From the IMG/VR virus record IMGVR_UViG_3300042564_000253: DNA of 44,406 nucleotides, one strand, 5' to 3'. The notes under the pieces were generated by a model that saw only the letters and a program-made list of their open reading frames with translations, had not been told where the DNA came from and made no database searches. The stretch's first letter is position 1; each line of letters begins with the position of its first letter. Source of the DNA: a virus. Lineage: Duplodnaviria; Heunggongvirae; Uroviricota; Caudoviricetes. This document shows positions 1,595-35,489 of this stretch, piece by piece. A program made the position numbers and the translations under genes.

Positions 1595-2100
1595 CTTACG
1601 TAAAGGAAAAGTTTCCTGAGAAGTTTGTCAATTGTAGAGTGTTAGATGTTGGTTCATTAGATATTAATGGAAACAATAGATATCTATTTACAAATTATAA
1701 GTACATTGGTGTAGATATTGGAGCAGGTAATAATGTAGATGTTGTATGTAGAGGACATGAGTTTAAAGACTCTGAAGGATTTGATATTGTTATATCAGCT
1801 GAATGCTTTGAGCATGATGAGTTCTGGAAGGATACAATTAAAAACTGTATTGCTTTAACTAAACCAGGAGGAGTGTTCTTATTTAGCTGTGCTACAACAG
1901 GGAGACCTGAGCATGGTACCAAGAGAAGTAATCCTCAAGACTCTCCATTTACATCCTTAATAGAAAATGATTACTATATGAATCTTACAGAACAAGATGT
2001 TCGTGAAGAGATAGATATGGAAAATCATTTCTCACAACATGAGTTTGTTGCTAGAGAAACATGGCCTCAAGATTTATATTTCTGGGGAATCAAGAAATAA
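1564..2100 (+). CDS. class I SAM-dependent methyltransferase
   Basis: VLDVGS motif I, YIGVDIGAG.NVDVV, FDIVISAECFEHD, LTKPGG. Confidence 0.85.
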   Translation: MAHPEQRTFMTYVKEKFPEKFVNCRVLDVGSLDINGNNRYLFTNYKYIGVDIGAGNNVDVVCRGHEFKDSEGFDIVISAECFEHDEFWKDTIKNCIALTKPGGVFLFSCATTGRPEHGTKRSNPQDSPFTSLIENDYYMNLTEQDVREEIDMENHFSQHEFVARETWPQDLYFWGIKK

Positions 2101-4978: not shown

Positions 4979-5272
4979 TTACTGCGTATCTTCCAAATTT
5001 ATTTCAAACACTATAGTTGCAGAACTCTTAATACTTTTAGATAGATTTAGTCTAATCTTGAACAGGTTGTGTAGCTTTAATATCTCCTGCAGCAACATAT
5101 CATTGTACATAGGCAATGAGGGAGCCAATCTAAAGTGATACGAGAGAGGGTTCTTAGTGACCTCTAACGTAGAAAGTTCATCAACTGAAGCAATTACTCC
5201 CTCAAGATGTGCAAAATAAGCAAGTTCGTTATCTTGCATCACTTGAGGGAAGAATTTTTTATTTACTTGCAT
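4979..5272 (-). CDS. hypothetical protein
   Basis: 97 aa, TAATG-coupled to the upstream gene. Confidence 0.7.
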   Translation of the reverse strand: MQVNKKFFPQVMQDNELAYFAHLEGVIASVDELSTLEVTKNPLSYHFRLAPSLPMYNDMLLQEILKLHNLFKIRLNLSKSIKSSATIVFEINLEDTQ

Positions 5273-5676
5273 TAAGACAAGGTTAATAAGTATTTAGTTT
5301 TTGCAGCTTCACCACTTAAGGCATCAGCTAAATTGGCTATATCATGATAGCTGTTTGCTTCACCATAGCTTTTCAATGAAGATGCAAAAGATAAAAGATT
5401 TGACACACATTCATTTCCTGTACAATTTGTAAGAGGTTCTATCTTGTATGGAGCAGGTCTTTTACCTGTATACCCCATAAGCTTCTCTATCACACCATCT
5501 TTAAAGTCTTGTACATAATCATACAATCCTCCTAGAGCTTGATGCTCAGCATAACTAGTTGTTTGCCAGTGAGTTAAATGTAATTGCTCATGAAAATATG
5601 TAAGCTTCCCAGCTATTGTTTCCAAGTTTAATTCTCCTGATTTCATCATCTCATCAGGGAATAGTGATTTTGCCAT
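5272..5676 (-). CDS. ferritin/Dps-like four-helix-bundle protein (DUF5856-like)
   Basis: HEQLHLTHWQTTSYAEHQALGGLYDYVQDFKDGVIEK resembles the Dps ferroxidase signature H..HW.....H..L..Y......D...E. Confidence 0.75.
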   Translation of the reverse strand: MAKSLFPDEMMKSGELNLETIAGKLTYFHEQLHLTHWQTTSYAEHQALGGLYDYVQDFKDGVIEKLMGYTGKRPAPYKIEPLTNCTGNECVSNLLSFASSLKSYGEANSYHDIANLADALSGEAAKTKYLLTLS

Positions 5677-5699: not shown

Positions 5700-6173
5700 T
5701 TATCTCGCACAACCTTCTGAATTGTTACAAGAAGCAGTTCCACCAGTGATTATAAGTCCATCATCTCCTGTTACAGCTGTAGAAGAACATACAATTGAAA
5801 TTGTATCTGCTTGAATAGCTGTAGATGTAGGTACTTCACTACCACAATCTGTATATGTGTAATCAAGTGGTCCTGCTGTTTGATTGTCTACTGTATAACA
5901 GAAACACTCAGGTCCTGCAGTAGTTGTTGTTGATGTAGTGCTTGTTGATGTGCTAGTGCTTGTTGATGTGCTAGTACTAGTAGTTGTTGTAGTCACTGGA
6001 GCCTCTGTAGTAGTGGTTGTAGTGGTTGTAGGATTACAACACTCGTTTGCATCTATCTCTTGCCAGTTACCAACCTTTGGTTTTGATCTTTGTAGTATTA
6101 AACTACCTGCTATCACACGTCCTGTACCATCGTAACGTACATACGCTTTTAATCTATTATTGCTATTTGCCAT
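5700..6173 (-). CDS. putative virion decoration protein: shared N-terminal domain, Thr/Ser linker, Cys-containing C-terminal domain
   Basis: N-terminal ~46 aa paralogous to 6185..6370; linker PTTTTTTTTEAPVTTTTTSTSTSTSTSTSTSTTSTTTT. Confidence 0.75.
   Translation of the reverse strand: MANSNNRLKAYVRYDGTGRVIAGSLILQRSKPKVGNWQEIDANECCNPTTTTTTTTEAPVTTTTTSTSTSTSTSTSTSTTSTTTTAGPECFCYTVDNQTAGPLDYTYTDCGSEVPTSTAIQADTISIVCSSTAVTGDDGLIITGGTASCNNSEGCAR
5938..5973. repeat. exact 18-bp tandem duplication
   Basis: gtgcttgttgatgtgcta x2 inside the (ST)n linker coding sequence. Confidence 0.9.
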
Positions 6174-6184
6174 GTTTATTTAAT

Positions 6185-6370
6185 TTAACGAGGTTCAGTG
6201 GTTGTTGTTGTTGTTGTAGGAACATAATTGCAGCATTCATAAGCTGGGATCTCTACCCACTTACCCACTTTTGGTTTCTTTCTTCTTAAGATTAGGCTGC
6301 TTGGAACGATTCTTCCAGTACCATCAAAGCGTACATAAGCTTTGAGAGGGCGATTAGTATTCTGGGCCAT
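6185..6370 (-). CDS. 61-aa paralog of the 5700..6173 N-terminus, ending in a poly-Thr tail
   Basis: LKAYVRFDGTGRIVPSSLILRRKKPKVGKWVEIPAYECC then PTTTTTTTEPR. Confidence 0.8.
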   Translation of the reverse strand: MAQNTNRPLKAYVRFDGTGRIVPSSLILRRKKPKVGKWVEIPAYECCNYVPTTTTTTTEPR

Positions 6371-6372
6371 AA

Positions 6373-7389
6373 TTAATAATTTATATTATATTTTGTTTTT
6401 ATTTCTATAAGTTGTGTTAGATAGTAATGATTAGCTTTTTTCTTAGTAGTCTCATCATTAAGCACCTTATCTAAATGTGTATCTAGAAAAGGATCTTTAC
6501 CTGCGTGATATGCTCCTTTATAGAAAGCAGGATATCCCATACTAGTCTGTCCTGTAATCCCTGCATTGTGTAATAATGTTGTTCTCTCTAACTTCTCTAT
6601 AGGATCTGAAGACCAACAGAATTCCAATTCAGGAATGTTCTTTGTTTCTTTCTCTCTAAGCCAAACGTTCCATAGCACAGCCCACATATCTGCACACCAG
6701 CTTTGAAACCCTTTGTCTTCATTTTTGAAGAACTCTTTATTTATATTCTGAAGGTAAACACGTATTAGTATACAGTCATTCATTACCTTCTTCCAAAACT
6801 CACTATCTATATTCTTAAGGAAGTATTGAGCTCCTCCTGAATGATCATTGTTAGCTTCAGCTATCTCTCTTGTTATACCCACTAAGCTTGTAAGCTCAGC
6901 TAAGACATCTCTAGTTCTATACTCTTCCAGTTTGTCTGGTAGAACATCTCTTTCTTTACTATCAAAATATGAAGCGTTGATATAACTGTTTGTATCAGAC
7001 AAGTAGTTTATATCATCATCTTTAAATTTATCTATATCAAACTTTTCTGTGAAGATTACATCACAATCACAGTAAAACACTGCTTTGGACACCATCTCAG
7101 GATTGTCCTGGAAATATCTCATTAAGCAATAGGGACGTAGAATAGGAATATACACTCCTAAATACTGACTAACATCTCCTGTATCCTTGTAGAAAGCAAA
7201 TTGTGCTTCTGGATACAGCTCCATTATCTTCTCCCATTTACCATTATATTCTCTGAAACTAGGTGTGTACACTAAAACAATAGCTTTGTCTGAGTGTCCA
7301 AGCTTCTTCAAGCTTTCCAACCATAGATGTACCTGCCATGTGTAGTAGACATCATCTGGTTGTGCACAGATAAATTTAAGATCCTTCAT
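6373..7389 (-). CDS. GT-A glycosyltransferase resembling plant HPAT (GT95) / peptidyl-serine galactosyltransferase (GT96)
   Basis: Collinear motifs YYTWQ, YIPILRPY, FYCDCDVIF (DxD), SGGAQY, SWCADMWA, LLHNAG. Confidence 0.7.
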   Translation of the reverse strand: MKDLKFICAQPDDVYYTWQVHLWLESLKKLGHSDKAIVLVYTPSFREYNGKWEKIMELYPEAQFAFYKDTGDVSQYLGVYIPILRPYCLMRYFQDNPEMVSKAVFYCDCDVIFTEKFDIDKFKDDDINYLSDTNSYINASYFDSKERDVLPDKLEEYRTRDVLAELTSLVGITREIAEANNDHSGGAQYFLKNIDSEFWKKVMNDCILIRVYLQNINKEFFKNEDKGFQSWCADMWAVLWNVWLREKETKNIPELEFCWSSDPIEKLERTTLLHNAGITGQTSMGYPAFYKGAYHAGKDPFLDTHLDKVLNDETTKKKANHYYLTQLIEIKTKYNINY

Positions 7390-7415: not shown

Positions 7416-7553
7416 TTAAGGAGCAGGTGTGGTAGTTGTAGTAGTAGTCCCACCTTTATATAATATACCTGTAAGGTATTCCAATTGCTTAGATATTTGC
7501 CAAAGCAATTTAGATTTTTGACTCCAGCCTATTTGTTGTGAAGGTATTGCCAT
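7416..7553 (-). CDS. 45-aa paralog of the 7566..8423 N-terminus, ending in a poly-Thr tail (not in ORF track)
   Basis: Read manually: [45 protein letters not shown]. Confidence 0.8.
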   Translation of the reverse strand: MAIPSQQIGWSQKSKLLWQISKQLEYLTGILYKGGTTTTTTTPAP

Positions 7554-7565
7554 TATTAATATATT

Positions 7566-8423
7566 TTATCCTACTTGATTTACTGTTACAATTAGACCAG
7601 GAATAGCAGGAACATTTCCTGAAGCTACAGCTGATGTAATTGCTATTGCATTATCTGCATTACTATTTATTTCCCACTTAAGTTGAACATATTCATTAGC
7701 CACTGTTGTCTTGAAAAAGAAATTCCAAGCTGCTACAACATACACAGAGTTAGAAGGAAATCCTAATTGAGAAGCACTAGTAGGTACATCTGTACCATTT
7801 TGTGATAGCCAAATGTGTGCATGCGTTGCAGTGTTACCAGCATTTTTTACCATCTGTGCACTAAATTGTATATTATATACACCAGGATTAGCTATTGTTA
7901 TTTGATTACCAGAAACAAGTGAAACACCATTATTCCAAGAATCTGAATTAGTAAGACCCATTGTAAGAACAGCTCCTGCAAGACCTGTTTGACTTGTAGT
8001 ATCATAGAAAGATCCTAAATAACCACCAACAGCTCCATTAGCTCCACTAGTTCCAGCAGTTCCTGTAACACCAGCTGTTCCAGCTGTACCACTTACTCCT
8101 GAAGTTCCTGATTCACCTGATGTTCCTGAAGTACCATCTATACCAGAAGTTCCATCAATTCCTGAAGTACCACTTGTTCCACTAACTCCATTAGTGCCAC
8201 TAATACCATTGGTACCAGAAAGACCTGAAGTTCCAGACGTACCTACAACACCACTAGTTCCTGATGTTCCTGATAAACCAGCAGCACCACTAGTACCAGA
8301 CGTACCTGTTCCACCACCACCTGCGTTGTATGCAACACCATTTATAGCTTCTAATTGCTTAGAAATTTGCCACAAGAGGTTTTCTTCTGTTCCCCATCCT
8401 ATCTGTCTGCTTGGTATAGCCAT
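7566..8423 (-). CDS. fibre/spike protein: short anchor, (G-T-S)n triplets, C1q/BclA-CTD-like head
   Basis: Uninterrupted Gly-X-Y triplets followed by [12 protein letters not shown]...[16 protein letters not shown] beta domain. Confidence 0.8.
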
Positions 8424-12197: not shown

Positions 12198-12220
12198 AGC
12201 AAAATGTTTTTTATTTTAAA

Positions 12221-12228
12221 CAAAAGTA
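12221..12228 (-). promoter_or_regulatory. -7 element TACTTTTG for the leftward gene
   Basis: TAnnTTTG 23 nt upstream of ATG 12197. Confidence 0.5.
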
Positions 12229-12229
12229 G

Positions 12230-12237
12230 TACATTTG
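12230..12237 (+). promoter_or_regulatory. -7 element TACATTTG for the modification operon
   Basis: TAnnTTTG 17 nt upstream of ATG 12255; back-to-back with the minus-strand element. Confidence 0.55.
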
Positions 12238-12254
12238 TAGGAAATATCAAAGAC

Positions 12255-12692
12255 ATGATTATAGTTATTTTTGGGCAGCCTGGAGCTGGTAAAACTACAC
12301 TAGCTCAAAGACTCATATTAGAGAGATTTTATCACATAGATGGAGACAAGTTAAGAGACATTTTCAAGAACAAAGATTACAGTAAGGAGGGTAGGATTAA
12401 GAATCTAAATAGGGCTAGTGACATTGCTCACTACATAGCCTTTACAGAAGGTCGTGACGTAGTCTTATCACTAGTCTATCCTTATGAGGAAGCTAGAGAG
12501 TACTTACGTAAGTTAACTAAAGGAGTTAGATGGATCTATCTAATCTATGAAGATGATAGAAATAGAGATCAATTTAAAGTGGAAGACTTTGAACTTCCAC
12601 ATATGGACAATGTAGATTTAATCATCAATACTTCCAACACTTCAATAGAAGAAAGTATAAACAAAATCAAAAATGTATGCAGAATATTCTAG
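12255..12692 (+). CDS. cysC: adenylyl-sulfate (APS) kinase-like protein
   Basis: GQPGAGKTT P-loop, IDGDKLR, DYSKEGRIKNLNRA, SLVYPYEEAR; start moved to ATG 12255. Confidence 0.8.
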   Translation: MIIVIFGQPGAGKTTLAQRLILERFYHIDGDKLRDIFKNKDYSKEGRIKNLNRASDIAHYIAFTEGRDVVLSLVYPYEEAREYLRKLTKGVRWIYLIYEDDRNRDQFKVEDFELPHMDNVDLIINTSNTSIEESINKIKNVCRIF

Positions 12693-13069
12693 CAAAGGGT
12701 AATGGTAAAGGAAATGGTTGGGCTATGTTTATAGGTAGATGGCAACCATGGCATGAAGGACATAGATGGTTAATTGATCAACAGTTAAACCAGGGAAAGA
12801 AGGTGTGTATAGCTATTAGAGATATGGAAACTGATGAAAAGAATCCATACTCAGCAATTCAAGTGATGATGAATATCACCAATGAATTAATAGGTCTTGT
12901 AGAAGAGGGTATGATAAGAATCATGATTGTTCCTGATATAGAAAGTATTAATTTTGGACGTGGTGTTGGCTATGATATCATTGAACATATTCCTCCTGCA
13001 GAAATACATGACATCTCAGCAACAAAAATTAGAGAACAAATGAATAAGAATGAAGAAGATATTTTATAA
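12677..13069 (+). CDS. HxGH nucleotidyltransferase (cytidylyltransferase-like; possible minimal sulfate adenylyltransferase)
   Basis: FIGRWQPWHEGH and ISATKIR motifs; overlaps both the cysC-like and sulfotransferase genes. Confidence 0.75.
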   Translation: MQNILAKGNGKGNGWAMFIGRWQPWHEGHRWLIDQQLNQGKKVCIAIRDMETDEKNPYSAIQVMMNITNELIGLVEEGMIRIMIVPDIESINFGRGVGYDIIEHIPPAEIHDISATKIREQMNKNEEDIL

Positions 13070-13868
13070 CGCATCACTGCCTAGATCTGGGTCTACATTA
13101 TTGCAAAATGTGCTAGCACAAAACCCAGACATATATGCCACTCCTACTAGTGGTCTATCTACATTACTGCAATCAGCAAAAGAAACATACAGTAAGCGAG
13201 CTGAGTTTGCTGCATTAGATACAGCTCTTATGAAGAAAGCCTTCTTAGGATTTTTAAGAGGAGGTATGGAAGGGTTTACTAACAATCTTTCAGACAAGAA
13301 GTATATCTTAGATAAAAGTTTTAACTGGGGAGGTGATTACTATCTATTGAAATATATGTTCAATGGAGAGTCACCAAAGATCATCATGATGGTAAGAGAC
13401 TTAAGAGAAAGTGTAGCATCTATGGAATCACAGTATAGATTCTCTCCACAACATGTCTATCCTAAAATTGATTTAGAAACTACACAACTTACTACATTAG
13501 AGAAGAGACTTAAGTATTGGGCTGTAAGTAATCCATTTGGATTAACACTAGACTTTATCAAAGAGATATTTACAGCTAAGATAGAGAATGAGATATTCTT
13601 TATTAAGTTTGAGGAATTCTGTGCATTCCCTGAACCAGTGATGAAAGGACTGTATAACTATTTAGAGATACCATACTTTGCTCATGACTTTGATAACATT
13701 GAACAGGTGACTGATCAGAACGATGGGTTCTATATATTCAATCATAAGATAAGAAAACAACTAAGACCTGTTGAACCTAAGGCTTTAGATATACTTGGAC
13801 CAGAAGCATGTAAATGGGTGTATACAAATTACGAATGGTTCTTTAAAAAGTTTAATTATGCCTTATAG
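13050..13868 (+). CDS. PAPS-dependent sulfotransferase
   Basis: 5'-PSB loop SLPRSGSTLL; 3'-PB motif MVRDLRESVAS; IKFEEF. Confidence 0.9.
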   Translation: MKKIFYNASLPRSGSTLLQNVLAQNPDIYATPTSGLSTLLQSAKETYSKRAEFAALDTALMKKAFLGFLRGGMEGFTNNLSDKKYILDKSFNWGGDYYLLKYMFNGESPKIIMMVRDLRESVASMESQYRFSPQHVYPKIDLETTQLTTLEKRLKYWAVSNPFGLTLDFIKEIFTAKIENEIFFIKFEEFCAFPEPVMKGLYNYLEIPYFAHDFDNIEQVTDQNDGFYIFNHKIRKQLRPVEPKALDILGPEACKWVYTNYEWFFKKFNYAL

Positions 13869-14355
13869 CTCAACAGCATTCAAAGAAGAAGTAAAGCGTC
13901 ACATATTAGCTAACCTACCTCTTCATACTAAAATATTAGATGTAGGTCCTGGTGCAGGTACATATGGATCAATGTTACGTGACTACTATAATATAGATGG
14001 ATTAGAAATCCATGAGCCTTATATAGATAAGTTTAACCTTAGAAGTATATACAACAAAGTAATGGTGGGAAACATTCTAGCATTTGACGTCTCTCCATAT
14101 GATTATATTATATTAGGAGATGTACTAGAGCACATACCAAAGTATGAAGCTATCAATCTGGTAGCTAAGATTAACTCTGCAGATAAGAAGTGTTTAATAG
14201 CTGTACCTTATATGTATGAGCAAGGAGAGTATGATGGTAATGTACATGAGATACATCATCAACCAGACTTAACAAATGAAATATTCCTAGAGAGATATCC
14301 AAGCATGCACTTGTTATATAAAGATGCAGGATATGGATACTATATAAACTATTAA
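13858..14355 (+). CDS. class I SAM-dependent methyltransferase
   Basis: ILDVGPGAGTYG, DGLEI, YDYIILGDVLEH; start moved to ATG 13858. Confidence 0.85.
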   Translation: MPYSSTAFKEEVKRHILANLPLHTKILDVGPGAGTYGSMLRDYYNIDGLEIHEPYIDKFNLRSIYNKVMVGNILAFDVSPYDYIILGDVLEHIPKYEAINLVAKINSADKKCLIAVPYMYEQGEYDGNVHEIHHQPDLTNEIFLERYPSMHLLYKDAGYGYYINY

Positions 14356-14356
14356 T

Positions 14357-15007
14357 ATGAACAACATAGAAACTTTATATCCCCATGGTGGATACATATT
14401 TAAACTACACTTTGATTTTGATTGGAAAACATTATATCCAATATGCAAAGAGTTAGTTAACTCAGAACTTGCATACTCTCCACTAGTAAAGAATGGTAAG
14501 AGTTCACATATGAACAAGCTATCTCCTCATAAGATAGAAGAATTTAGGCCATATTATATGTGGTTGTCTTCTTTAATTAAAGAAATCTTTACAAAGAATT
14601 GTCAATACTCTGATGATGTAATGGAGTATTTTGTTGCTAACAGTTGGGTGAATGTGCAGGGATATGGTGGTCACACTACAGTGCACAATCATGCTAATGT
14701 TTTTATGGTAGCTGCTGCTTATCTAAACCTACCTAAAGATGGTGGGTTCTTTGAATGCGTAGATCCATTAGAGTATAACAAAAGTAATCAGTATCATGAT
14801 GATCCTAATTGGATGTGGAAAGAAGTGCCTGCAATAACTGGTGATGTGTTAGTGTTTCCTGGTTGGTTAAAACATAGAACACAAGTGAACAATGCTCACT
14901 CTAAATTACTTATTGATGACAATGGTGTAGGACGTGAGGAAAACTCATCTGAAGATAGATGGGTTTTGACTACAAACTTTACACAAGAATTTAAAGAAAT
15001 AGTATAA
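14357..15007 (+). CDS. 2OG-Fe(II) oxygenase, TIGR02466-like
   Basis: SWVN, HNH metal motif, AAYL, VFPGWLKH, RWVLTTN. Confidence 0.85.
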   Translation: MNNIETLYPHGGYIFKLHFDFDWKTLYPICKELVNSELAYSPLVKNGKSSHMNKLSPHKIEEFRPYYMWLSSLIKEIFTKNCQYSDDVMEYFVANSWVNVQGYGGHTTVHNHANVFMVAAAYLNLPKDGGFFECVDPLEYNKSNQYHDDPNWMWKEVPAITGDVLVFPGWLKHRTQVNNAHSKLLIDDNGVGREENSSEDRWVLTTNFTQEFKEIV

Positions 15008-15960
15008 TGAAACCAGTCTGTTTAAACTTAGAAGAATGTAATGGGTTAGGTGACCTTATATGTGCCACCCCCACCATCAAGAAACTACATGATGCATACC
15101 AAAGAAAGATCATTGTCATCTCTAAGATGCCTGAGCTATTCAAGATGAATCCTTATGTAGAGAAGAGCTATAAAGCTAGTTCAATGGATATGGATTATTT
15201 CAAAGCTAATTATATAATGCACAACTCTTTCTATCTAGTAGGTAAGAAAGATGAGCGTGGTATAGAGATGAAGCATAATATGATGGACATCAGACAGTTC
15301 CATGCTATACACCTAGGCTTTATGCTTGGACAAGATGAACTAGAATGTTATTACAAACCTACAGAAGAAGATGCTTGTACAGATGGATTTAGTGATAAAA
15401 GTACATCTGGTACCAAAAGATATATAGTGATACATCCTGTTAACAGCTGGCCTAATAGAACATGGTCACAAGAGAACTGGTTAAACTTATCTAAAGAATT
15501 GATTAAATGGGGATATAATGTAGTGGCTGTAGGAAAAGATAGCTCTGAGACAGGGTTCTTTAATGTACAGAAACCTGTACATGAGATGGACAATAACATT
15601 ACTAATCTAATGAATAAGACATCCATATCTCAAACGTGGTATCTGATTAATAATGCTGCAGCTGTTATCACCATGGACTCAGGTATTCTTCATCTAGCAG
15701 GTACAACAGAAACACCTATAATTGAATTAGGATCTCCTATCAACCCTGAGTTTCGTAGACCATATAGAAAGACTAGTAAGCATATATACGTAAGAGGAGG
15801 CTGTGGATTACACTGCAGTTCTAACATGAAGTATGCTCTTGAGTATTGGCCTACGATAGACTACGTACAACCATTGATTGGATGTCTAGAGAAGAAAGAA
15901 ACATTTGAATGTCATCCATCTGTAGAACAAGTAATTCATGCAATTAACAATAACATATGA
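15007..15960 (+). CDS. GT9-family (heptosyltransferase-like) glycosyltransferase with C-terminal Cys cluster
   Basis: GLGDLICATP, IVIHP...RTWSQENW, ITMDSGILHLAG; C..HC...C...EC. Confidence 0.85.
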   Translation: MKPVCLNLEECNGLGDLICATPTIKKLHDAYQRKIIVISKMPELFKMNPYVEKSYKASSMDMDYFKANYIMHNSFYLVGKKDERGIEMKHNMMDIRQFHAIHLGFMLGQDELECYYKPTEEDACTDGFSDKSTSGTKRYIVIHPVNSWPNRTWSQENWLNLSKELIKWGYNVVAVGKDSSETGFFNVQKPVHEMDNNITNLMNKTSISQTWYLINNAAAVITMDSGILHLAGTTETPIIELGSPINPEFRRPYRKTSKHIYVRGGCGLHCSSNMKYALEYWPTIDYVQPLIGCLEKKETFECHPSVEQVIHAINNNI

Positions 15961-18620
15961 AAAAACTATTAATCATCACTCCTCACCTATCAACAGGAGG
16001 AGCACCACAGGTAACTGTAAATAAAGTAGAATTGTTACGAGAACACTTTGAAATCAAGGTGGTAGAGTATGCATTCTTAGCATGGCAGTTTGTTGTACAA
16101 AGAAATAGAATCATTGACATGCTTACAGAAGGAGTTAACTTCCATTCATTAGGGGATAATAAGTACGATGAACTGTTGCAAATTCTGCAAGACTTCAAAC
16201 CAGATGTAATCTCTATGGAAGAATTCCCTGAGATGTTTATGAATGAAGAATGTGCTGACTATATATATGATGCAGAGAGGCCATGGAAGGTTGTAGAAAC
16301 TACACATGATAGTTCATTCAATCCTAAAAACAAATACTATCTACCTGATAAGTTTGTATTTGTTAGCTCATATAACTCGTTCCAATACATTACATTAAAT
16401 GTACCTACAGAGGTAATTGAATATCCTATTGATAAGAAGGTTAGAAATAAAGTAGAGAGACAGCAACAACTTGGCTTAGATCCTGAGTACAAACACTTTG
16501 TAACTGTAGGGTTGTTTACTCCTAGAAAGAACCAAGCATATGCATTCCAACTAGCAGAAAGACTTAAGAACCACAAGGTTAAGTTTCACTTCCTAGGTAA
16601 CCAAGCTGGTAACTTTGCTAACTATTGGCAACCATTGATGGCTAACAAACCAGACAACTGTGTTGTGTGGGGAGAGCGTAATGATGTAAGTGAATTCTTA
16701 GAAGCATGTGATGTGTTTTTGTTCCCATCTAAAGGAGACAGAGGTAATAAGGAGTTAAATCCTATTGCTATTAAGGAAGCCATGGAATATGATGACTTGA
16801 TCAAAGTGATGTACAATCTAGACGTATACTGTAACAAGTATAATGATGAGGAGAATATGGTTTATTTAACTGGAGATCTTGGTAGTGATGCTACCAATAT
16901 CATCAAAAAATTAAACCTAGATGTATTAGATGAAGAGTGTATCATCTTGGGCACCTATCCAAATATTAAGGACAGAGTGCAATGGACCAAGGATACCATA
17001 CTGTCTCTAAAGCCATTAGGTAGAAAGATTATACTAGTATCTCACTATCCTGTAGACCAGGACATACAACGTATGGTGGATTACTATATCTATGATAAAC
17101 ACAACCCCTTGACTCACCACAGTTACTACACTAGGTTTTATCATGATACACCAGAGTACTTTGCTGAGATCAATATCAATGGATTGAAGGATAGCAATCA
17201 GTCCCTTACAGTGCTAGTAAACATGTTCAATGCAGCTAAGGTTGCTAAAGAGCTTGGATTCAAGAGATTCTTCTATACTACGTATGATGTTATGTTAGAT
17301 CCTAGAGACATACCTGCAGTGAATGAAGCATTTAGAACAGATAAAAAGTTATATGCTGCTACACTACCTACACCACAGGGTAAAGGTATTCAGACCAATG
17401 GTATTATGTTTGACACAGACTTCTTCTTAAAAGAGTTTGATGATGTGCGTACAGCAGAAGAATGGAACGCTGTATGTAAGAAAAGAAAATGTGAGAACTA
17501 TCTAGAAGACTATTTGTCCAAGGTTATCTTTAGCTTCAATCCTAATGATATTCAAGTGGTTACAACTGACAAGGATACTATGTTGATACACAGTGGGTTA
17601 GGTGTAGCATCTAATAGTGAGTATTATTCTATCATCCCTGTTGTTGGAAAACCAAACACTTATGTGTTCTATTTCTTTACATATAACAGAGACTTTAGAA
17701 ACATTTATATATCTATTGAAGATTACATGTGGAAAAGAATCATACCAGCTAAGAACCATGAACTTCTTTATCAGTTTGAATTCAAAGGAGAACCTATTAA
17801 TGTAAGAATGGATTTCTATGATGGTGATATAACTTATAAGGTGGAAGAGTTTATAATAAACAAAGACACATTACCTCTATACAAAAATACAGGTAAGTTT
17901 CAATGGAAGAAGAAGGATAGACCTAAGATTAAATTAGTTCATATACAAACCACACTAAATGATGAAAGAGAAAGAGCAAGTAGAGACTCCCTTATCAGCG
18001 TTGTCAACCATGGATGGGAATATAAGTTACATCTTAACCAGCCCTATAAGTCATTACCACCATCATATAACTGTCTCAGACCCAGTTGTGTTTCAATGGA
18101 ACTCTTCAATGAGGAGCAAGTTCGACAGTATGGCACTGCACTTACCCCAGCACATTATGGATGCTATCAAGCATTCAAAGATGCCATCTTAAGTGAATTC
18201 AATAACTGTGACTACTTGATAGTGTGTGAAGGTGATTGTATTATTGAGACAGACATACACTTTTTCGTACAAAAAGTTGAGGAATGTGCACACTTATTGG
18301 GACCAAACAACATAGAGTTTATGTCCTTTGGAGATAAAGATACATTAGAACATGGATGGCCTCAGAGTCCTGTCATCAAAGATGTGAACGATGATATGTA
18401 TGTCACTAATCATCTTATAGGTTTACAATGTATCATGTTCCCTGCACATGTATCTCCATGGTTAAAAGAAACTTTAAGAATGCACAAATGGGATGCTGCT
18501 GATATGTATTTTAATAATATCTTTGCAGGAGACAAAATGGGTATAGTTAAGAAAAGACTTACCACACAGGCAGATGGATTTTCTTTAATAGACAACATGC
18601 AAAAAACATTTAGAAAATGA
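15957..18620 (+). CDS. three-domain glycosyltransferase (GT4, uncharacterised GT-A-like, GT25-like)
   Basis: HLSTGGA, GLFTPRKNQ, DVFLFPS..ELNPIAIKEA (GT4); middle IILVSHYP..YYIYD domain; C-terminal AHYGCYQAF..LIVCEGD. Confidence 0.8.
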   Translation: MKKLLIITPHLSTGGAPQVTVNKVELLREHFEIKVVEYAFLAWQFVVQRNRIIDMLTEGVNFHSLGDNKYDELLQILQDFKPDVISMEEFPEMFMNEECADYIYDAERPWKVVETTHDSSFNPKNKYYLPDKFVFVSSYNSFQYITLNVPTEVIEYPIDKKVRNKVERQQQLGLDPEYKHFVTVGLFTPRKNQAYAFQLAERLKNHKVKFHFLGNQAGNFANYWQPLMANKPDNCVVWGERNDVSEFLEACDVFLFPSKGDRGNKELNPIAIKEAMEYDDLIKVMYNLDVYCNKYNDEENMVYLTGDLGSDATNIIKKLNLDVLDEECIILGTYPNIKDRVQWTKDTILSLKPLGRKIILVSHYPVDQDIQRMVDYYIYDKHNPLTHHSYYTRFYHDTPEYFAEININGLKDSNQSLTVLVNMFNAAKVAKELGFKRFFYTTYDVMLDPRDIPAVNEAFRTDKKLYAATLPTPQGKGIQTNGIMFDTDFFLKEFDDVRTAEEWNAVCKKRKCENYLEDYLSKVIFSFNPNDIQVVTTDKDTMLIHSGLGVASNSEYYSIIPVVGKPNTYVFYFFTYNRDFRNIYISIEDYMWKRIIPAKNHELLYQFEFKGEPINVRMDFYDGDITYKVEEFIINKDTLPLYKNTGKFQWKKKDRPKIKLVHIQTTLNDERERASRDSLISVVNHGWEYKLHLNQPYKSLPPSYNCLRPSCVSMELFNEEQVRQYGTALTPAHYGCYQAFKDAILSEFNNCDYLIVCEGDCIIETDIHFFVQKVEECAHLLGPNNIEFMSFGDKDTLEHGWPQSPVIKDVNDDMYVTNHLIGLQCIMFPAHVSPWLKETLRMHKWDAADMYFNNIFAGDKMGIVKKRLTTQADGFSLIDNMQKTFRK

Positions 18621-19630
18621 GAATAGTACACGTAGCTACAGGACTAATAACCATACCACCAAATGGATGGGGTGCTGTAGAAAGACTTATATGGGAATAC
18701 AAACAAGGACTTGAGAAGCTTGGTGATGTTGTAGACATCAGATATATGAATGAGCTAGAGAGATGGCCTGATACTATTGTACATGCACATCTAGCCAACC
18801 AGGCTTTGTATTGTAGAGACAAAGGTATACCTTATGTATACTCTCTACATGATCATCATACAGAATGGTATGGCAAAGATAGCTGGGTATATAAGCAAAA
18901 CCTAGAGGCTATGAAACATAGTATTATATCTTTTACACATGCTGAGTATCTGATAGACTATTTCAGTGAGACTGATAAGTTGTTCTATCTAAGACATGGA
19001 GCCAACACAGAATTCTTCACACCAGAATATAGAATGGGTCCACATAAACTATTGATGATAGCCAACAATGGACTAGCAGGTGACTCAGGGTTTGATAGAA
19101 AAGGATTTAGATATGGTATAGAAGCAGCTAGAGAACTAGATCTTCCTATCACCATTGCTGGTCATCCTAATAATGAGAAGTTCTTTGATATACATATAGA
19201 GTTAATGAACTATAAAAAGTTAACTTTAAAGTTAACAAATCCTACAGATGAAGAAGTCAGAGAATTGTATCAAGATCATAGCATCTTCTTACATCCATCT
19301 ATGCTAGAAGCAGGACATCCTAACCTTACATTATGTGAAGCAGCTAGCTCTTGTATACCTATTGTAGGAACCTACAGAGGATCTAAACACTTTCCTGGTA
19401 TGTGGGTGTTACCAAACATCAGTACAGAGAGTGTAATGCTTGGCATTACAGAGACAATCAAGACATACGAGCATCGTGTAAAAGAAATGCAAGATGCACG
19501 TGACTATCATAGCTGGGACAATGTAGCTAAGACATTACATAAATACTATGAGAATATTTCTAAGATAACTGAAGGATATGACTCAGAGAAGACAAAACAA
19601 TTATACATCAATTTATACAATAATTTATGA
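18617..19630 (+). CDS. GT4-family glycosyltransferase
   Basis: PPNGWGAVE, RKGFRYGIEAA, IFLHPSMLEAGHPNLTLCEAA. Confidence 0.9.
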   Translation: MRIVHVATGLITIPPNGWGAVERLIWEYKQGLEKLGDVVDIRYMNELERWPDTIVHAHLANQALYCRDKGIPYVYSLHDHHTEWYGKDSWVYKQNLEAMKHSIISFTHAEYLIDYFSETDKLFYLRHGANTEFFTPEYRMGPHKLLMIANNGLAGDSGFDRKGFRYGIEAARELDLPITIAGHPNNEKFFDIHIELMNYKKLTLKLTNPTDEEVRELYQDHSIFLHPSMLEAGHPNLTLCEAASSCIPIVGTYRGSKHFPGMWVLPNISTESVMLGITETIKTYEHRVKEMQDARDYHSWDNVAKTLHKYYENISKITEGYDSEKTKQLYINLYNNL

Positions 19631-20223
19631 GAGTAGAAATGTTATCAATTGCAGACTTCTACAGTAACGTAGATGAAGTGAGAAACTTTGCAATGCAACA
19701 AGAATTCCTTGGTGAAGAAGCTCACTTCCCAGGTAAGAGAACTAAATCATTTTTAAATGATAGTGTTAAAGAGATAATTCAAAGTACCATGAGACCATTT
19801 GCAGGAGACGTTACGTGGTGGGGAGATCACAACTCTGGAGCATTTCAATACACTACAGCAGCAGACAGATCGTGGATACACTCTGATGGTAATGCTGATT
19901 GGGCAGCTGTATGTTATTTAACTCCTGATGCACCATTGAGTGCAGGTACAGGAATATTTAAACATAAAGCAACTGGTCTTAGAAACTGGATATATAAAGA
20001 TCATTTTACAGAAGAAGATAAATATGGTGTTAAAGACGCACCTCATCGTGGTGCTGATTCTGTTGACTATACCAAGTGGGAGATGGTGGATAGAATAGGT
20101 AATATGTATAATAGACTTATAATATATAGAGGTGATCTATTTCATGTATCTTTGGATTACTTTGGTAGAGATTTACAAACAGGAAGATTGTTTCAAACAT
20201 TCTTTTTTAATACAGAGAAATGA
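19627..20223 (+). CDS. 2OG-Fe(II) oxygenase (DUF6445-like)
   Basis: SWIHSD (HxD), WAAVCYLTPDAP..GT.IF, YNRLIIY.G.LFH, RLFQTFF. Confidence 0.85.
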   Translation: MRVEMLSIADFYSNVDEVRNFAMQQEFLGEEAHFPGKRTKSFLNDSVKEIIQSTMRPFAGDVTWWGDHNSGAFQYTTAADRSWIHSDGNADWAAVCYLTPDAPLSAGTGIFKHKATGLRNWIYKDHFTEEDKYGVKDAPHRGADSVDYTKWEMVDRIGNMYNRLIIYRGDLFHVSLDYFGRDLQTGRLFQTFFFNTEK

Positions 20224-21317
20224 TAATATATAATGTACACCATGTTAATGGTTTGTTCTTTGAGCTACTAGACGATGGTGGCAAGAACAGAGAATATGAT
20301 ATACAGTTTGTAGATAGGAAGGGTAAGGTGGAAGGTATGCTTACAGATCAACATGTAACTATCTATGAAACAAAACTAAAGGTAGGTGCATGGGCTAGAC
20401 TTAGTAGAAAGTATCTATCTGACATAGCTATATTTGTTAAATATGAAGGACGTGTAGTTAAGCAAATAAACTTATTAGATGAGTTTAAAGATAAGAGAGT
20501 GTTTATTGTATTTGAGTCTAAGAGTCTTGGAGATAGCATAGCTTGGATACCATACTGTTTAGAGTTTCAGGAAGTTTATAAATGCAAAGTAATTGTATCT
20601 ACATTCAAGAATGATTTGTTTGAGAGTGTATATCCTGAACTAGAGTTTGCAGGCAGAGGAACGACAGTTGAGAATCTCAAAGCAATGGTTGAACTAGGTT
20701 GGTTTTGGGATAAGGAAAAAGAACCTACACATCCTGCTACCATTCCTTTACAACAAGCAGCAAGTAATGCATTAGCTTTACCATTTAGAGAGATCTCACC
20801 TAGAATAGCTTTCACACCAGGAGAAAGACCTGTAGTAAATGAATACATATGTATATCAACTAGATCTACAGCACAATGTAAACACTGGTACTACTGGCCA
20901 GAGCTAATTCAAAAACTAAAAAGCTGGGGATACAGAGTGTTTGAGATGTCTCAAGAAGCTGATGACTATGGAGCAGAGACATTAGAAGATAAATCATTAC
21001 AGAACGTGATGAACTATCTACATCATGCTGAATTATTTGTAGGATTATCTAGTGGTATCAGCTGGTTGAACTGGGGAATTGGTAAGAAGACAGTGATGAT
21101 TTCTAACTTCACTACACCAGATCATGAGTTCCAATCCAATTGTATACGCATAATTAATAAAGATGTGTGTAATGGCTGTTGGAATAATCCTGTGTTCAAG
21201 TTTAATAAAGGAGATTGGAATTGGTGCCCTGAGCACGAAGATACTCCTAGACACTTTGAGTGTCATAAGTCAATCACTGTAGATACAGTATTACAAACAA
21301 TAAAAGATAATTTATGA
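20220..21317 (+). CDS. TibC/AAH-type autotransporter O-heptosyltransferase homolog
   Basis: SLGDSIAW catalytic-Asp motif; FVGLSSGISWL; VCNGCWN...WCPEH..T.RHFECHKSI four-Cys iron site. Confidence 0.88.
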   Translation: MIIYNVHHVNGLFFELLDDGGKNREYDIQFVDRKGKVEGMLTDQHVTIYETKLKVGAWARLSRKYLSDIAIFVKYEGRVVKQINLLDEFKDKRVFIVFESKSLGDSIAWIPYCLEFQEVYKCKVIVSTFKNDLFESVYPELEFAGRGTTVENLKAMVELGWFWDKEKEPTHPATIPLQQAASNALALPFREISPRIAFTPGERPVVNEYICISTRSTAQCKHWYYWPELIQKLKSWGYRVFEMSQEADDYGAETLEDKSLQNVMNYLHHAELFVGLSSGISWLNWGIGKKTVMISNFTTPDHEFQSNCIRIINKDVCNGCWNNPVFKFNKGDWNWCPEHEDTPRHFECHKSITVDTVLQTIKDNL

Positions 21318-21961
21318 AAGGAGAAGTATTTGGGATATTCCCAACACCAGTTTTGAAATTCAAAATGGATAGAGACTTTACTAAAGAGGAATTAGATTTT
21401 GTAGATCTTTATAAAGATAAAGTTCCTCAACCTCCTTACTTCATACATCTAGGAAACAATGGCACAACTGATAAAAAGATCCTTGAGCATCCAGAGATGG
21501 CTGGTTTAAAGAAGATTGTAGAAGACTGTTTAAATCAATGGTGTATTAATGTTTATGCTCCTCGTAACCCTGAGTCTTTTAAACTAAAGATAACACAATC
21601 TTGGCTAAACTATACAGAGCCAGACGAGCATCATGATAGACACTATCATCCAAATAGTATAGTGAGTGGTGCTATTTATATAGATACTAATCCAGTGAAG
21701 GATCAAATTACATTTAACTCTGGTAAGATGTATGATTACTATATACCATGGATTGCTTTGAATCAATTCAACTCTATGGAATCCACTATTACTTTAACTA
21801 AGAAAGATATAGTTTTATTTCCTTCTAATTTAAATCATTCTGTTCCAAAGAACATAGGATCAAATACAAGGATTAGTTTAGCATTTAATTCTTTCTTTGA
21901 GGGATCTCTTGGTGTAAATAAAGATGAACCAAACTACGTACAATTCAATAGTGTAGAATAA
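21314..21961 (+). CDS. 2OG-Fe(II) oxygenase, TIGR02466-like
   Basis: ITQSWLN, HYHPNSIVSGAIY, LFPSNLNHSV, RISLAFN. Confidence 0.9.
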   Translation: MKGEVFGIFPTPVLKFKMDRDFTKEELDFVDLYKDKVPQPPYFIHLGNNGTTDKKILEHPEMAGLKKIVEDCLNQWCINVYAPRNPESFKLKITQSWLNYTEPDEHHDRHYHPNSIVSGAIYIDTNPVKDQITFNSGKMYDYYIPWIALNQFNSMESTITLTKKDIVLFPSNLNHSVPKNIGSNTRISLAFNSFFEGSLGVNKDEPNYVQFNSVE

Positions 21962-23934: not shown

Positions 23935-23936
23935 AA

Positions 23937-24305: not shown

Positions 24306-24315
24306 ATTTTTTATT

Positions 24316-26926: not shown

Positions 26927-26935
26927 ATTTATTTA

Positions 26936-28603: not shown

Positions 28604-28625
28604 TTATATTTATTTTATACGTTTA

Positions 28626-35486: not shown

Positions 35487-35489
35487 GCT

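What the first reader, a model, noticed from the sequence alone, without database searches (positions are those of the whole stretch)
6373..7389. Plant-type HPAT/SERGT-like protein O-glycosyltransferase sitting among its four likely substrates
Seen: the 338-aa protein has YYTWQ, YIPILRP, CDCDVIF, GGAQY, SWCADMW and LLH in order. From memory these align with plant hydroxyproline O-arabinosyltransferase (YxxWQ, YxVLNRP, EPDHVF, GWVLEMY, IIH) and peptidyl-serine galactosyltransferase SERGT1 (YFDWQ, YPAINKP, LDADMI, GWISEMY), which modify extensins. The gene is flanked on both sides by proteins carrying poly-Thr or GTS tracts (5700, 6185, 7416, 7566). Inference: a phage member of a family known mainly from plants and algae, initiating O-glycosylation on Thr runs. 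It is separate from the main operon.
Basis: partly seen in the sequence, partly recalled or inferred. Interest (0 to 1): 0.86.

Follow-up and report, generated by a model that had tools for sequence, protein, structure and literature searches.

The report
Phage sugar-transferase beside poly-threonine tagged proteins
A phage gene of no named family encodes a sugar-adding enzyme folded most like the plant enzymes that glycosylate cell-wall proteins, and in many unrelated phages it travels with threonine-run tails on phage proteins, so it very probably sugar-coats those tails, although no sugar has been shown.

Summary
The ORF and all six motifs are real (338 aa, 6373-7389, minus strand). It has no Pfam hit and matches only phrog_4417, a family of unknown function. 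An AF2 model (pLDDT 96.9) is a soluble DxD GT-A fold. Its best annotated structural matches are Arabidopsis SERGT1 and HPAT1-3 (TM 0.58-0.62), ahead of GT8 (0.44-0.50). The Pfam HPAT profile does not detect it, so it is HPAT/SERGT-like, not a member.

The substrate inference is well supported by comparison:
- In 63 distinct relatives, 69% of ORFs next to the enzyme carry T6+ runs, against 3% of the other ORFs.
- In 8 of 8 distant phages the gene follows the major capsid or tail-tube gene, and those proteins end in poly-Thr tails.
- Five close relatives that lack the enzyme have the same capsid and tail cores without the tails.
- Homologues in Bacteroidota chromosomes sit in lanthipeptide clusters, which argues independently for peptide acceptors.

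Three of the four proposed substrates have Thr runs. The fourth, a BclA-like collagen fibre, is unsupported as a substrate. No glycan, donor sugar or acceptor residue has been demonstrated.

This scan reached the same reading earlier on other DNA. I found no paper on this family. The closest precedent is mycobacteriophage virion glycosylation.

The parts
6373..7389 (-). Glycosyltransferase, 338 aa (P0001). Soluble GT-A fold with DxD (D108, D110), Q188, H274 and K291. Member of phrog_4417.
   Evidence: ORF and translation. PHROG match 8e-55. No Pfam hit. AF2 model pLDDT 96.9. Fold matches. Invariant residues. No hydrophobic segment (maximum KD19 0.71).
7416..7553 (-). A' protein, 45 aa: about 30 aa of the conserved N-terminal helix domain shared with the 285-aa fibre, then T7-PAP. 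Candidate acceptor and glycan carrier.
   Evidence: 35 distinct orthologues keep the N-domain and one or two T7-9 runs. It is the ORF immediately upstream of the enzyme in most relatives.
7566..8423 (-). A protein, 285 aa: the same N-terminal domain, about 100 aa of G-T-S collagen-like triplets, and a BclA/C1q-like C-terminal head. A trimeric fibre-type protein. Its status as a substrate is unsupported.
   Evidence: Pfam Collagen 2e-13. PHROG tail-fibre families. C-terminal domain pLDDT 80-92. Foldseek to F-BclA and BclA, TM by target 0.64-0.75. In relatives the N-domain is joined to at least 7 different C-terminal heads.
6185..6370 (-). B' protein, 61 aa: conserved 47-aa N-domain ending in ECCN, then T7-EPR. 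Candidate acceptor.
   Evidence: 40 distinct orthologues show T7-8 runs separated by x-x-P spacers. It lies immediately downstream of the enzyme in most relatives.
5700..6173 (-). B protein, 157 aa: the same N-domain, a T8 run plus a long T/S tract, and a Cys-rich C-terminal part. Candidate acceptor.
   Evidence: The orthologue in a relative whose enzyme is 89% identical also carries long T runs.
28626..30359 (-). Collagen-like tail fibre, 577 aa, whose C-terminus ends in a T7 run followed by LP. A possible fifth acceptor, 21 kb from the enzyme.
12204..21961 (+). Separate glycan-tailoring operon: APS-kinase-like, cytidylyltransferase-like, sulfotransferase, methyltransferase, three 2OG oxygenase-type proteins, two GT9-like and two GT4-type transferases. 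These could extend or decorate a glycan that the enzyme starts (inference).

Best explanation
The gene encodes a soluble, metal-dependent (DxD) GT-A glycosyltransferase of an uncharacterised family, phrog_4417. The enzyme most likely works in the infected cell's cytoplasm. Using a host nucleotide sugar, it most likely puts the first sugar on the hydroxyl groups of threonine runs ('poly-Thr tags') carried by phage proteins.

In this phage the tags sit on two short proteins (45 and 61 aa) and one longer one (157 aa) that flank the gene, and probably on the C-terminus of one tail fibre. The short proteins are an anchor-like domain plus a Thr tail, so they would act as mucin-like glycan carriers.

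Shown: the fold, the conserved catalytic-type residues, and the co-occurrence and co-loss of enzyme and tag.

Inferred: that a sugar is transferred at all, that Thr is the acceptor, that this enzyme initiates rather than extends, the retaining chemistry (by likeness to GT8, GT95 and GT96), and that the tagged proteins end up on the virion.
For: 1. Enzyme.
- The AF2 model has pLDDT 96.9.
- Best matches are SERGT1 and the HPATs at TM 0.58-0.62, and HPAT-like domain proteins at 0.55-0.65, against GT8 at 0.43-0.48.
- Among solved structures, glycogenin scores Z 14.5, the Skp1 alpha-galactosyltransferase 14.1, LgtC 13.9, GlyE 13.0 and the PBCV-1 capsid transferase A64R 11.3.
- D108, D110, Q188, H274 and K291 are invariant.
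- Relatives are fused to GT2, GT6, GT7C, GT25, GT32 and methyltransferase domains.

2. Tag next to enzyme within the clade.
- In 63 loci with distinct enzyme sequences, 87 of 126 adjacent ORFs have a T6+ run, against 39 of 1231 other same-strand ORFs (odds ratio 68).

3. Distant phages at 25-36% identity: Enterococcus phiFL1A, Lactococcus bIL285, Lacticaseibacillus R3.3, Lactobacillus Iacchus, Mammaliicoccus vB-SscS-F1, Arcanobacterium TPWB06, Clostridium phiCTP1 and Chryseobacterium MA9V-3.
- In the seven annotated Gram-positive phages the gene follows the major head or major tail gene, with at most one small ORF between. MA9V-3 is unannotated.
- All eight carry poly-Thr tracts. In the seven they are C-terminal tails on capsid, tail-tube or adjacent small proteins; in MA9V-3 they lie in the two upstream proteins.

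4. Natural experiment.
- Streptococcus phages Javan47, 315.6 and Javan377 (tail tube 55-60% identical to phiFL1A) and Lactobacillus phages phiJL-1 and ATCC8014 (same genus as R3.3) have the same capsid and tail-tube cores.
- They have no Thr tail and no enzyme anywhere in the record (0 of 5; positive control 4 of 4).

5. Reverse test.
- Of 67 IMG/VR stretches with an in-frame T8+ run, 5 hold the enzyme.
- In all 5 it lies directly downstream of the poly-Thr ORF.

6. Initiator role.
- In phiFL1A the only T5+ runs are the capsid and tail-tube tails.
- Four small siphophages have no GT2 or GT1/GT4 gene, while controls ring in 14 of 14 genomes (annotation).

7. Peptide acceptors elsewhere.
- Homologues in Chitinophaga, Sphingobacterium, Longitalea and Mucilaginibacter, with every invariant residue kept, lie between HlyD/ABC-type or C39-ABC exporters, LanB dehydratase and LanC-like cyclase genes.
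Against: - No experiment on any member of the family was found, so glycosylation itself is unproven.
- The Pfam HPAT profile does not recognise the protein. The tie to known peptide O-glycosyltransferases therefore rests on predicted folds with TM about 0.6.
- The best solved matches are GT8-type enzymes, several of which act on sugars rather than proteins.
- Most poly-Thr proteins in IMG/VR (62 of 67) have no such enzyme in the stretch held.
- The chromosomal homologues have no Thr run within 3 kb. The pairing is therefore neither universal nor exclusive.
- The clade statistics count related genomes, not independent events.
Confidence: 0.72

Rival explanations
1. The enzyme extends a glycan rather than starting it. 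A host enzyme or another phage enzyme attaches the first sugar to Thr, and this enzyme adds the next one, as GlyE (GT8) does on the pneumococcal serine-rich protein.
For: GT8-type solved structures, including GlyE at Z 13.0, are the best solved matches. This phage has at least six other transferase genes. Many relatives are fused to a second transferase domain.
Against: Four small siphophages with Thr-tailed capsid or tail-tube proteins encode no GT2 or GT1/GT4 enzyme, so this is their only recognisable transferase. The enzyme and the tag are gained and lost together. That is expected for the enzyme that recognises the peptide.
Confidence: 0.1
2. In this phage the acceptor is hydroxyproline or serine/threonine within the collagen-like fibres, as with plant HPAT on Hyp or the glycosylated collagen region of BclA. 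The Thr runs would then be only linkers.
For: The fold is closest to the HPATs. A prolyl-hydroxylase-type 2OG oxygenase (PF13640) lies at 21997-22590, beside five collagen-like fibre genes with G-P-Q and G-P-T triplets. The 285-aa neighbour is BclA-like. Thr runs are usually bounded by Pro.
Against: The feature shared across the family's phage contexts is the Thr run, not collagen repeats or a hydroxylase. phiFL1A, bIL285, R3.3 and phiCTP1 have Thr tails on capsid or tail-tube proteins and no collagen fibre beside the gene. In relatives, the long A-family proteins often lack collagen repeats while the Thr-tailed short ORF is kept.
Confidence: 0.06
3. The enzyme acts on a non-protein target: host envelope polysaccharide or teichoic acid (to change receptors), or phage DNA bases.
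For: Phage transferases of these kinds are well known (papers found). The GT-A fold alone does not fix the acceptor.
Against: The gene sits inside head and tail morphogenesis modules, not lysogeny or replication modules. The protein has no membrane segment. The DNA-modifying phage GT-A enzymes described have other motifs (R...DDD...EDY/F) and lie next to cytosine methyltransferase with 5mYOX, or ThyS, genes. None of these lies next to this gene in the window or in phiFL1A. Neither target explains the co-loss of the Thr tails.
Confidence: 0.05
4. The pairing is structural or regulatory rather than catalytic. The Thr tails would be unmodified flexible spacers, and the enzyme-like protein an assembly factor or inactive relic.
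For: No glycan has been shown. Thr and Pro-rich linkers exist without glycosylation.
Against: The DxD, Q, H and K catalytic-type residues are invariant over relatives down to 25-30% identity, in both phage and bacterial contexts. That argues for a working enzyme.
Confidence: 0.03

Closest known systems
Plant hydroxyproline O-arabinosyltransferases (HPAT1-3, PLENTY, RDN1/2, NOD3; CAZy GT95; Pfam PF23452) and peptidyl-serine alpha-galactosyltransferase SERGT1/SGT1 (GT96)
   Same: These are the best annotated structural matches over the whole domain: TM 0.58-0.62, query residues 1-337, with HPAT-like domain proteins next in the AFDB clusters. Both have a GT-A fold with DxD. From established knowledge, they put the first sugar directly on hydroxy-amino acids in repetitive, low-complexity peptides, which is the role inferred here. 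Atlas feature neighbours include phage and bacterial clusters in which 10-58% of members carry PF23452 (a lead only).
   Different: There is no significant sequence match to the HPAT profile, and identity in the structural alignments is 11-13%. The phage protein has no membrane anchor and is cytoplasmic, not Golgi. The inferred acceptor is Thr runs, not Hyp or Ser of Ser-Hyp4. The donor sugar is unknown.
Mycobacteriophage virion O-glycosylation (Che8, Corndog, Myrna; Freeman et al. 2023, Cell Host Microbe; known here only through citing papers PMC12619734 and PMC12363180)
   Same: Phage-encoded transferases modify C-terminal extensions of capsid and tail-tube subunits. That is the arrangement seen for this family in phiFL1A, R3.3, phiCTP1, TPWB06 and others.
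   Different: The enzyme family differs: tblastn with this protein finds no Mycobacterium phage among 77 records. Here the tag is a recognisable Thr run. In this phage the tag sits on small dedicated proteins rather than on capsid or tail-tube subunits. Nothing has been shown experimentally for this family.
GT8-clan retaining GT-A enzymes (glycogenin, LgtC, GlyE; also GT24 UGGT, the GT77 Skp1 alpha-galactosyltransferase, GT6)
   Same: These are the best solved structures: Z 13-14.5, 218-247 residues aligned at 3.7-4.5 A (Foldseek). The protein has DxD plus a C-terminal His...Gly...Lys arrangement. Glycogenin, UGGT, the Skp1 enzyme and GlyE all act on proteins or protein-borne glycans.
   Different: There is no Pfam Glyco_transf_8 hit. 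TM to GT8 models (0.44-0.50) is lower than to HPAT/SERGT. The protein has about 80 extra residues of helical insertions.
BclA-type collagen-like glycoprotein fibres of Bacillus exosporium (for the 285-aa neighbour)
   Same: The architecture matches: an N-terminal anchor, G-X-X collagen repeats rich in Thr, and a C1q-like head (TM by target 0.64-0.75). From established knowledge, the BclA collagen region is O-glycosylated on Thr.
   Different: Sequence identity is 12-23%. Nothing here shows that this fibre is glycosylated. Its counterparts in related phages swap heads and often lack collagen repeats.

Membership tests
PHROG phrog_4417 (unknown function) | Significant full-length match to the family profile | tested here: met
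   E 8.1e-55, residues 4-324 on profile positions 1-285 of 293.
GT-A fold, metal-dependent nucleotide-sugar transferases | Rossmann-like GT-A fold with a DxD motif | tested here: met
   Model pLDDT 96.9. 101 solved chains score Z 8 or more, and the top 17 rows are all glycosyltransferases. D108-x-D110 is invariant in 125 relatives.
HPAT family (Pfam PF23452; CAZy GT95) | Match to the family's sequence profile at or above the curated cut-off (23.9 bits) | tested here: not met
   No hit at E up to 1 for this protein. Sub-threshold hits in 1 of 50 relatives (E 0.013) and 2 of 76 (best E 0.012). No match at E up to 10 in five phage records that hold a homologue; that search rang in no control genome either, so it counts for little.
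HPAT family (Pfam PF23452; CAZy GT95) | Same fold over the whole catalytic domain | tested here: met
   HPAT1-3, PLENTY, RDN1/2 and NOD3 give TM 0.58-0.62 over query residues 1-332. HPAT-like domain proteins give TM 0.55-0.65. Both sides are predicted models.
HPAT family (Pfam PF23452; CAZy GT95) | Type II membrane anchor (Golgi enzyme) | tested here: not met
   The maximum 19-residue Kyte-Doolittle mean is 0.71, and the catalytic fold starts at residue 4.
HPAT family (Pfam PF23452; CAZy GT95) | Transfers L-arabinofuranose to hydroxyproline | not testable with these tools
   Needs an enzyme assay. Context points to Thr runs instead.
SERGT1 / SGT1 (CAZy GT96) | Fold likeness to the catalytic domain | tested here: met
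   Arabidopsis SERGT1 is the top Swiss-Prot hit (E 7.1e-10, TM by query 0.62, hit residues 391-702). Chlamydomonas SGT1 gives TM 0.52.
   No plant sequence or GT96 profile could be obtained. Foldseek reports 11-13% identity only.
GT8 (Pfam Glyco_transf_8) | Match to the family profile | tested here: not met
   No Pfam hit for this protein, and none for GT8 in 125 relatives.
GT8 (Pfam Glyco_transf_8) | Fold and DxD ... H-x-x-G-x-x-K nucleotide-sugar site | tested here: inconclusive
   Glycogenin Z 14.5 and LgtC Z 13.9. DxD is present. H274 and G277 are followed by K291 only after a 13-residue insert. No residue-level superposition was available.
Phage virion protein O-glycosylation systems (Che8 type) | Phage transferase encoded with capsid or tail genes whose products carry C-terminal acceptor extensions | tested here: met
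   Met in 7 of 8 distant relatives: the seven annotated Gram-positive phages. The eighth, MA9V-3, is unannotated. In this window the neighbours are fibre-type and small tagged proteins rather than capsid or tail-tube proteins.
Phage virion protein O-glycosylation systems (Che8 type) | Homology to the Che8, Corndog or Myrna transferases | tested here: not met
   tblastn at E 1e-3 finds 77 phage records, none from Mycobacterium phages.
Phage virion protein O-glycosylation systems (Che8 type) | Glycan shown on the proteins | not testable with these tools
   Needs mass spectrometry or glycan staining of virions.

The most novel reading that the evidence does not exclude
phrog_4417 is a prokaryotic and viral sister lineage of the plant extensin-glycosylating enzymes (GT95/GT96). 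It works as a portable 'write a sugar coat on any Thr run' system.
- Phages attach a T7-8 tag to capsid, tail-tube or fibre proteins, or to small anchor-only carrier proteins, and the enzyme turns the tag into a mucin-like glycan brush on the virion.
- The same enzyme family tailors lanthipeptide-type peptides in Bacteroidota.

If so, poly-Thr tails would predict glycosylated virions across many Gram-positive and Bacteroidota phages, including therapy candidates and dairy phages.
Probability: 0.35. Interest if true: 0.85.

Novelty: new variant of a known kind. Interest (0 to 1): 0.72.

Why it matters
Virion glycosylation has been shown in only a few mycobacteriophages, where it shields particles from antibodies.

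- An unrelated, much more widespread enzyme family paired with an easily recognised Thr-run tag would make glycosylated virions predictable from sequence. That covers Enterococcus, Lactococcus, Lactobacillus, Staphylococcus-group, Clostridium and Bacteroidota phages, which matters for phage therapy, dairy fermentations and receptor biology.
- It would supply a compact enzyme-plus-tag pair for protein glycoengineering.
- It would give the plant HPAT/SERGT enzymes their first microbial structural relatives with a clear biological context.
- The link to lanthipeptide clusters suggests an unexplored class of glycosylated peptide natural products.

All of this can be tested directly with inducible prophages of laboratory strains.

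Tried and rejected
- **Sequence search of solved structures.** The single protein and the 50-sequence profile gave nothing meaningful.
- **Alignment-based locus search.** It failed for lack of a conserved stretch, so the single protein was used instead.
- **Nucleotide search of the phage collection.** 25 kb of the window gave no match.
- **The window's own assembly.** It is not held.
- **Pfam HPAT profile.** Run over five phage records that carry a homologue, it found nothing. It rang in no control genome either, so this says little.
- **Complex prediction.** Enzyme plus the 61-aa Thr-tailed protein scored 0.01 against a mark of 0.32, which is no verdict. It is not evidence either way.
- **Promoter and terminator scan.** The counts were at the level of shuffled sequence.
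- **Literature.** Searches for this family, for poly-threonine phage tags and for HPAT in phages returned no paper on the subject. The primary mycobacteriophage paper is not held.
- **DNA glycosylation** was considered and set aside.
- **Profile-profile comparison with HPAT/SERGT1.** It could not be run, because no plant sequences could be brought in.
Full report
**1. The observation**

The minus-strand ORF 6373-7389 encodes 338 aa.

These motifs are the family's conserved core. In alignments of 50 and 76 diverse relatives, Y80, D108, D110, H274 and K291 are invariant. W18, R85, G185, G186, Q188 and D234 are at least 90% conserved.

The four neighbours are as described. The Thr runs use mixed ACA, ACT and ACC codons, so they are kept at the protein level and are not slippage repeats.

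**2. What the protein is**

Sequence searches:
- Pfam gives no hit at E up to 1.
- PHROGs places the protein in phrog_4417, function unknown, at E 8e-55.
- Sequence searches of solved structures find nothing.

The family is large. There are 2143 hits in the 90%-clustered protein set and 769 representatives at 50% clustering, many of them 500-1000 aa. Sampled long forms are fused to GT2, GT6, GT7C, GT25, GT32, methyltransferase and, once, radical-SAM/SPASM domains.

An AF2 model built on 50 relatives has pLDDT 96.9 and pTM 0.93. Structural comparisons:

| Library | Best matches | Score |
|---|---|---|
| Swiss-Prot models | Arabidopsis SERGT1; HPAT1-3, PLENTY, RDN1/2, NOD3; Chlamydomonas SGT1 | TM by query 0.62; 0.58-0.62; 0.52 (E 7e-10 to 1e-6) |
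| Swiss-Prot models | GT8-type (Gnt1, galactinol synthase, glycogenin, GATL) | TM 0.39-0.50 |
| AFDB clusters | Three family members | TM 0.77-0.81 |
| AFDB clusters | Mostly 'HPAT-like domain-containing' proteins | TM 0.55-0.65 |
| AFDB clusters | GT8 | TM 0.43-0.48 |
| Solved chains (VIA-align) | Glycogenin, Skp1 alpha-galactosyltransferase, LgtC, UGGT, GlyE, PBCV-1 A64R | Z 14.5, 14.1, 13.9, 13.7, 13.0, 11.3 |

Foldseek against the PDB agrees with the last row.

The protein has no hydrophobic segment, so it is a soluble cytoplasmic enzyme.

The Pfam HPAT model (PF23452) is in the library, but it detects only 3 of 125 relatives, at E about 0.012. It finds nothing in five phage records that carry a homologue. 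An Atlas feature search puts phage and bacterial clusters with partial PF23452 coverage (10% and 58% of members) among the nearest neighbours. It also lists a PqqD+HPAT fusion cluster further off. These are leads only.

The protein is therefore HPAT/SERGT-like in fold and lies in the retaining GT8-type part of GT-A space. It is not a demonstrable member of GT95, GT96 or GT8.

**3. The neighbours**

The gene order on the minus strand is A (285 aa), A' (45 aa), enzyme, B' (61 aa), B (157 aa).

- **A and A'** share a 30-aa N-terminal helix domain. A' then ends in T7-PAP.
- **B and B'** share a 47-aa domain ending in ECCN, followed by Thr runs.
- **A** has collagen-like G-T-S triplets (Pfam Collagen 2e-13). 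Its C-terminal domain is modelled at pLDDT 80-92 and matches F-BclA and BclA heads at TM by target 0.64-0.75.
- **In related phages** the A anchor domain is joined to at least seven different C-terminal heads, the pattern of exchangeable fibre tips.
- **A' and B'** are conserved genes. There are 35 and 40 distinct versions, each keeping the N-domain and one to three T7-9 runs separated by x-x-P spacers.
- **A further fibre** (28626-30359) ends in a T7 run.

**4. Does the enzyme go with the tag?**

*Within the clade.* I compared 80 IMG/VR loci whose enzyme is 65-94% identical. Among 63 loci with distinct enzyme sequences and both flanks present, 56 have a T6+ ORF directly next to the gene. 87 of 126 adjacent ORFs carry such a run, against 39 of 1231 other same-strand ORFs. 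These genomes are related, so this describes conservation and is not a count of independent events.

*Across distant phages.* Eight phages with enzymes 25-36% identical were examined.
- In the seven annotated Gram-positive phages the gene follows the major tail or tail-tube gene (phiFL1A, Iacchus, phiCTP1, TPWB06, vB-SscS-F1), with at most one small ORF between, or the major head gene (bIL285, R3.3; the R3.3 head gene is assigned by its end, as the record names no products).
- The eighth, Chryseobacterium phage MA9V-3, has no functional annotation.
- All eight carry poly-Thr tracts. In the seven these are C-terminal tails on capsid, tail-tube or adjacent small proteins. In MA9V-3 they lie in the two upstream proteins.

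*A natural experiment.* I compared phages with and without the enzyme that share the same structural proteins.
- The phiFL1A capsid and tail-tube proteins end in long Thr tails.
- Streptococcus phages Javan47, 315.6 and Javan377 have tail tubes 55-60% identical and the same capsid C-terminal core, but stop without any Thr run.
- R3.3 has the tails, whereas phiJL-1 and ATCC8014 of the same genus do not.
- The family profile finds no enzyme anywhere in those five records. It finds it in 4 of 4 positive controls.
- In the whole phiFL1A genome, the only T5+ runs are those two tails.

*The reverse direction.* A scan of IMG/VR for nine consecutive ACN codons gave 67 stretches with an in-frame T8+ run. 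Five of them contain the enzyme, and in all five it lies directly downstream of the poly-Thr ORF. Most poly-Thr proteins therefore lack this enzyme nearby. When the enzyme is present, it is adjacent.

**5. Initiator or extender?**

phiFL1A, bIL285, R3.3 and phiCTP1 have no GT2 or GT1/GT4 family gene, while the same searches ring in 14 of 14 control genomes. The phiFL1A annotation lists no other transferase. This enzyme is thus the only recognisable phage transferase in those genomes. That favours a role in attaching the first sugar, although a host enzyme cannot be excluded.

In the window's phage, further enzymes could extend or decorate a glycan. These are an operon at 12.2-22 kb (APS-kinase-like, sulfotransferase, methyltransferase, GT9-like and GT4-type enzymes, 2OG oxygenases) and a GT2-methyltransferase pair at 824-2100.

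**6. Independent support for peptide acceptors**

A scan of species-representative genomes found close copies on phage-like contigs binned with Sediminibacterium, Cytophagales and Saprospiraceae. This points to a Bacteroidota host.

It also found chromosomal homologues of 530-760 aa in Chitinophaga, Sphingobacterium, Longitalea and Mucilaginibacter. These keep every invariant residue. Their neighbours are lanthipeptide-type genes:
- *Sphingobacterium detergens*: LanB N- and C-terminal domains, HlyD, and a C39-peptidase ABC exporter.
- *Chitinophaga niastensis*, *Longitalea arenae* and *Mucilaginibacter oryzae*: a LanC-like gene directly downstream of the enzyme.

No Thr runs lie within 3 kb of the enzyme in these clusters. 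Bacteroidetes class I lanthipeptide clusters with C39 proteases are documented (PMC7268733), but that paper does not describe this enzyme.

**7. Rivals**

- *Extension rather than initiation* remains possible (section 5).
- *Hydroxyproline or collagen-repeat acceptors* are suggested here by a prolyl-hydroxylase-type oxygenase (PF13640, 21997-22590) lying beside five collagen-like fibres. The distant phages share only the Thr run, not collagen or a hydroxylase.
- *DNA or envelope targets* do not fit three things: the gene's place in morphogenesis modules, the lack of a membrane segment, and the different motifs and neighbours of the known DNA-modifying phage GT-A enzymes.
- *An inactive protein* does not fit the invariant catalytic-type residues.

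**8. Known or new?**

The kind of system is known from mycobacteriophages: a phage transferase modifying C-terminal extensions of virion proteins (Freeman et al. 2023, as cited in PMC12619734 and PMC12363180). This enzyme family is unrelated to those at tblastn level.

I found no paper on it. The Thr-run tag, the small carrier proteins, the HPAT/SERGT-like fold and the lanthipeptide link are all undescribed in what I could search.

Earlier reports of this scan reached the same main reading on other genomes. I re-derived it here. I added the enzyme-less control phages, the reverse scan, the test for other transferase families, and the lanthipeptide context.

**9. Verdict**

The best explanation is an initiating protein O-glycosyltransferase for poly-Thr tags (confidence 0.72). 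All of the chemistry is still to be shown.

Noticed in passing
L220:3001-4743, L221:2995-4596, L225:2995-4740, L227:2995-4692 (Bacteroidota chromosomes): Two-domain homologues of the enzyme lie inside lanthipeptide-type clusters (LanB, LanC-like, HlyD, C39-ABC exporter). This suggests glycosylated lanthipeptides in Chitinophaga, Sphingobacterium, Longitalea and Mucilaginibacter. The precursor peptides were not identified.
   Followed up: partly
window 12204-21961 (+) and 824-2100 (+): A large modification operon: APS-kinase-like, cytidylyltransferase-like, sulfotransferase, methyltransferase, three 2OG oxygenase-type proteins, two GT9-like and two GT4-type transferases. A GT2 and methyltransferase pair lies at 824-2100. 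Together these hint at a sulfated and methylated glycan made by the phage.
   Followed up: partly
window 21997-22590 (-) and 22627-30359 (-): A prolyl-hydroxylase-type 2OG oxygenase (PF13640) sits next to five collagen-like tail-fibre genes with G-P-Q and G-P-T triplets. The phage may hydroxylate its own collagen repeats.
   Followed up: no
window 28626-30359 (-): The 577-aa collagen-like fibre ends in a T7 run followed by LP. This is the same tag as on the small proteins beside the enzyme, 21 kb away.
   Followed up: partly
L003-L085 (ORFs upstream of the short A' gene): The 30-aa A anchor domain is joined to at least seven unrelated C-terminal heads in related phages (BclA-like and others, 130-996 aa). 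This looks like cassette exchange of fibre tips.
   Followed up: partly
L003-L085 (A' and B' orthologues): Thr runs are strikingly uniform at 7-9 residues and are separated by x-x-P spacers (AAP, VAP, ATP, VPP). The number of units varies from 1 to 3 or more. The reason for the fixed run length is unexplained.
   Followed up: no
window 30525-44405 (-): Two giant ORFs (1653 aa, and more than 2969 aa running off the window) have no PHROG match at 1e-5.
   Followed up: partly
Enterococcus phage phiFL2A, records GQ478084.1 / NC_013643.1, 23415-24131: The enzyme match covers only residues 4-270 and lies under a feature annotated as 'major tail protein'. This may be a truncated or fused copy.
   Followed up: no
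L092-L171 (IMG/VR stretches with nine ACN codons): 62 of 67 in-frame T8+ proteins, including several on giant-virus contigs, have no phrog_4417 enzyme in the stretch held. Other enzymes, or none, may serve those tracts.
   Followed up: no
window 5272-5676 (-): A DUF5856 / Dps-like 'starvation-inducible regulator' PHROG protein lies directly downstream of the module. It keeps this position in relatives (L003 and others).
   Followed up: no
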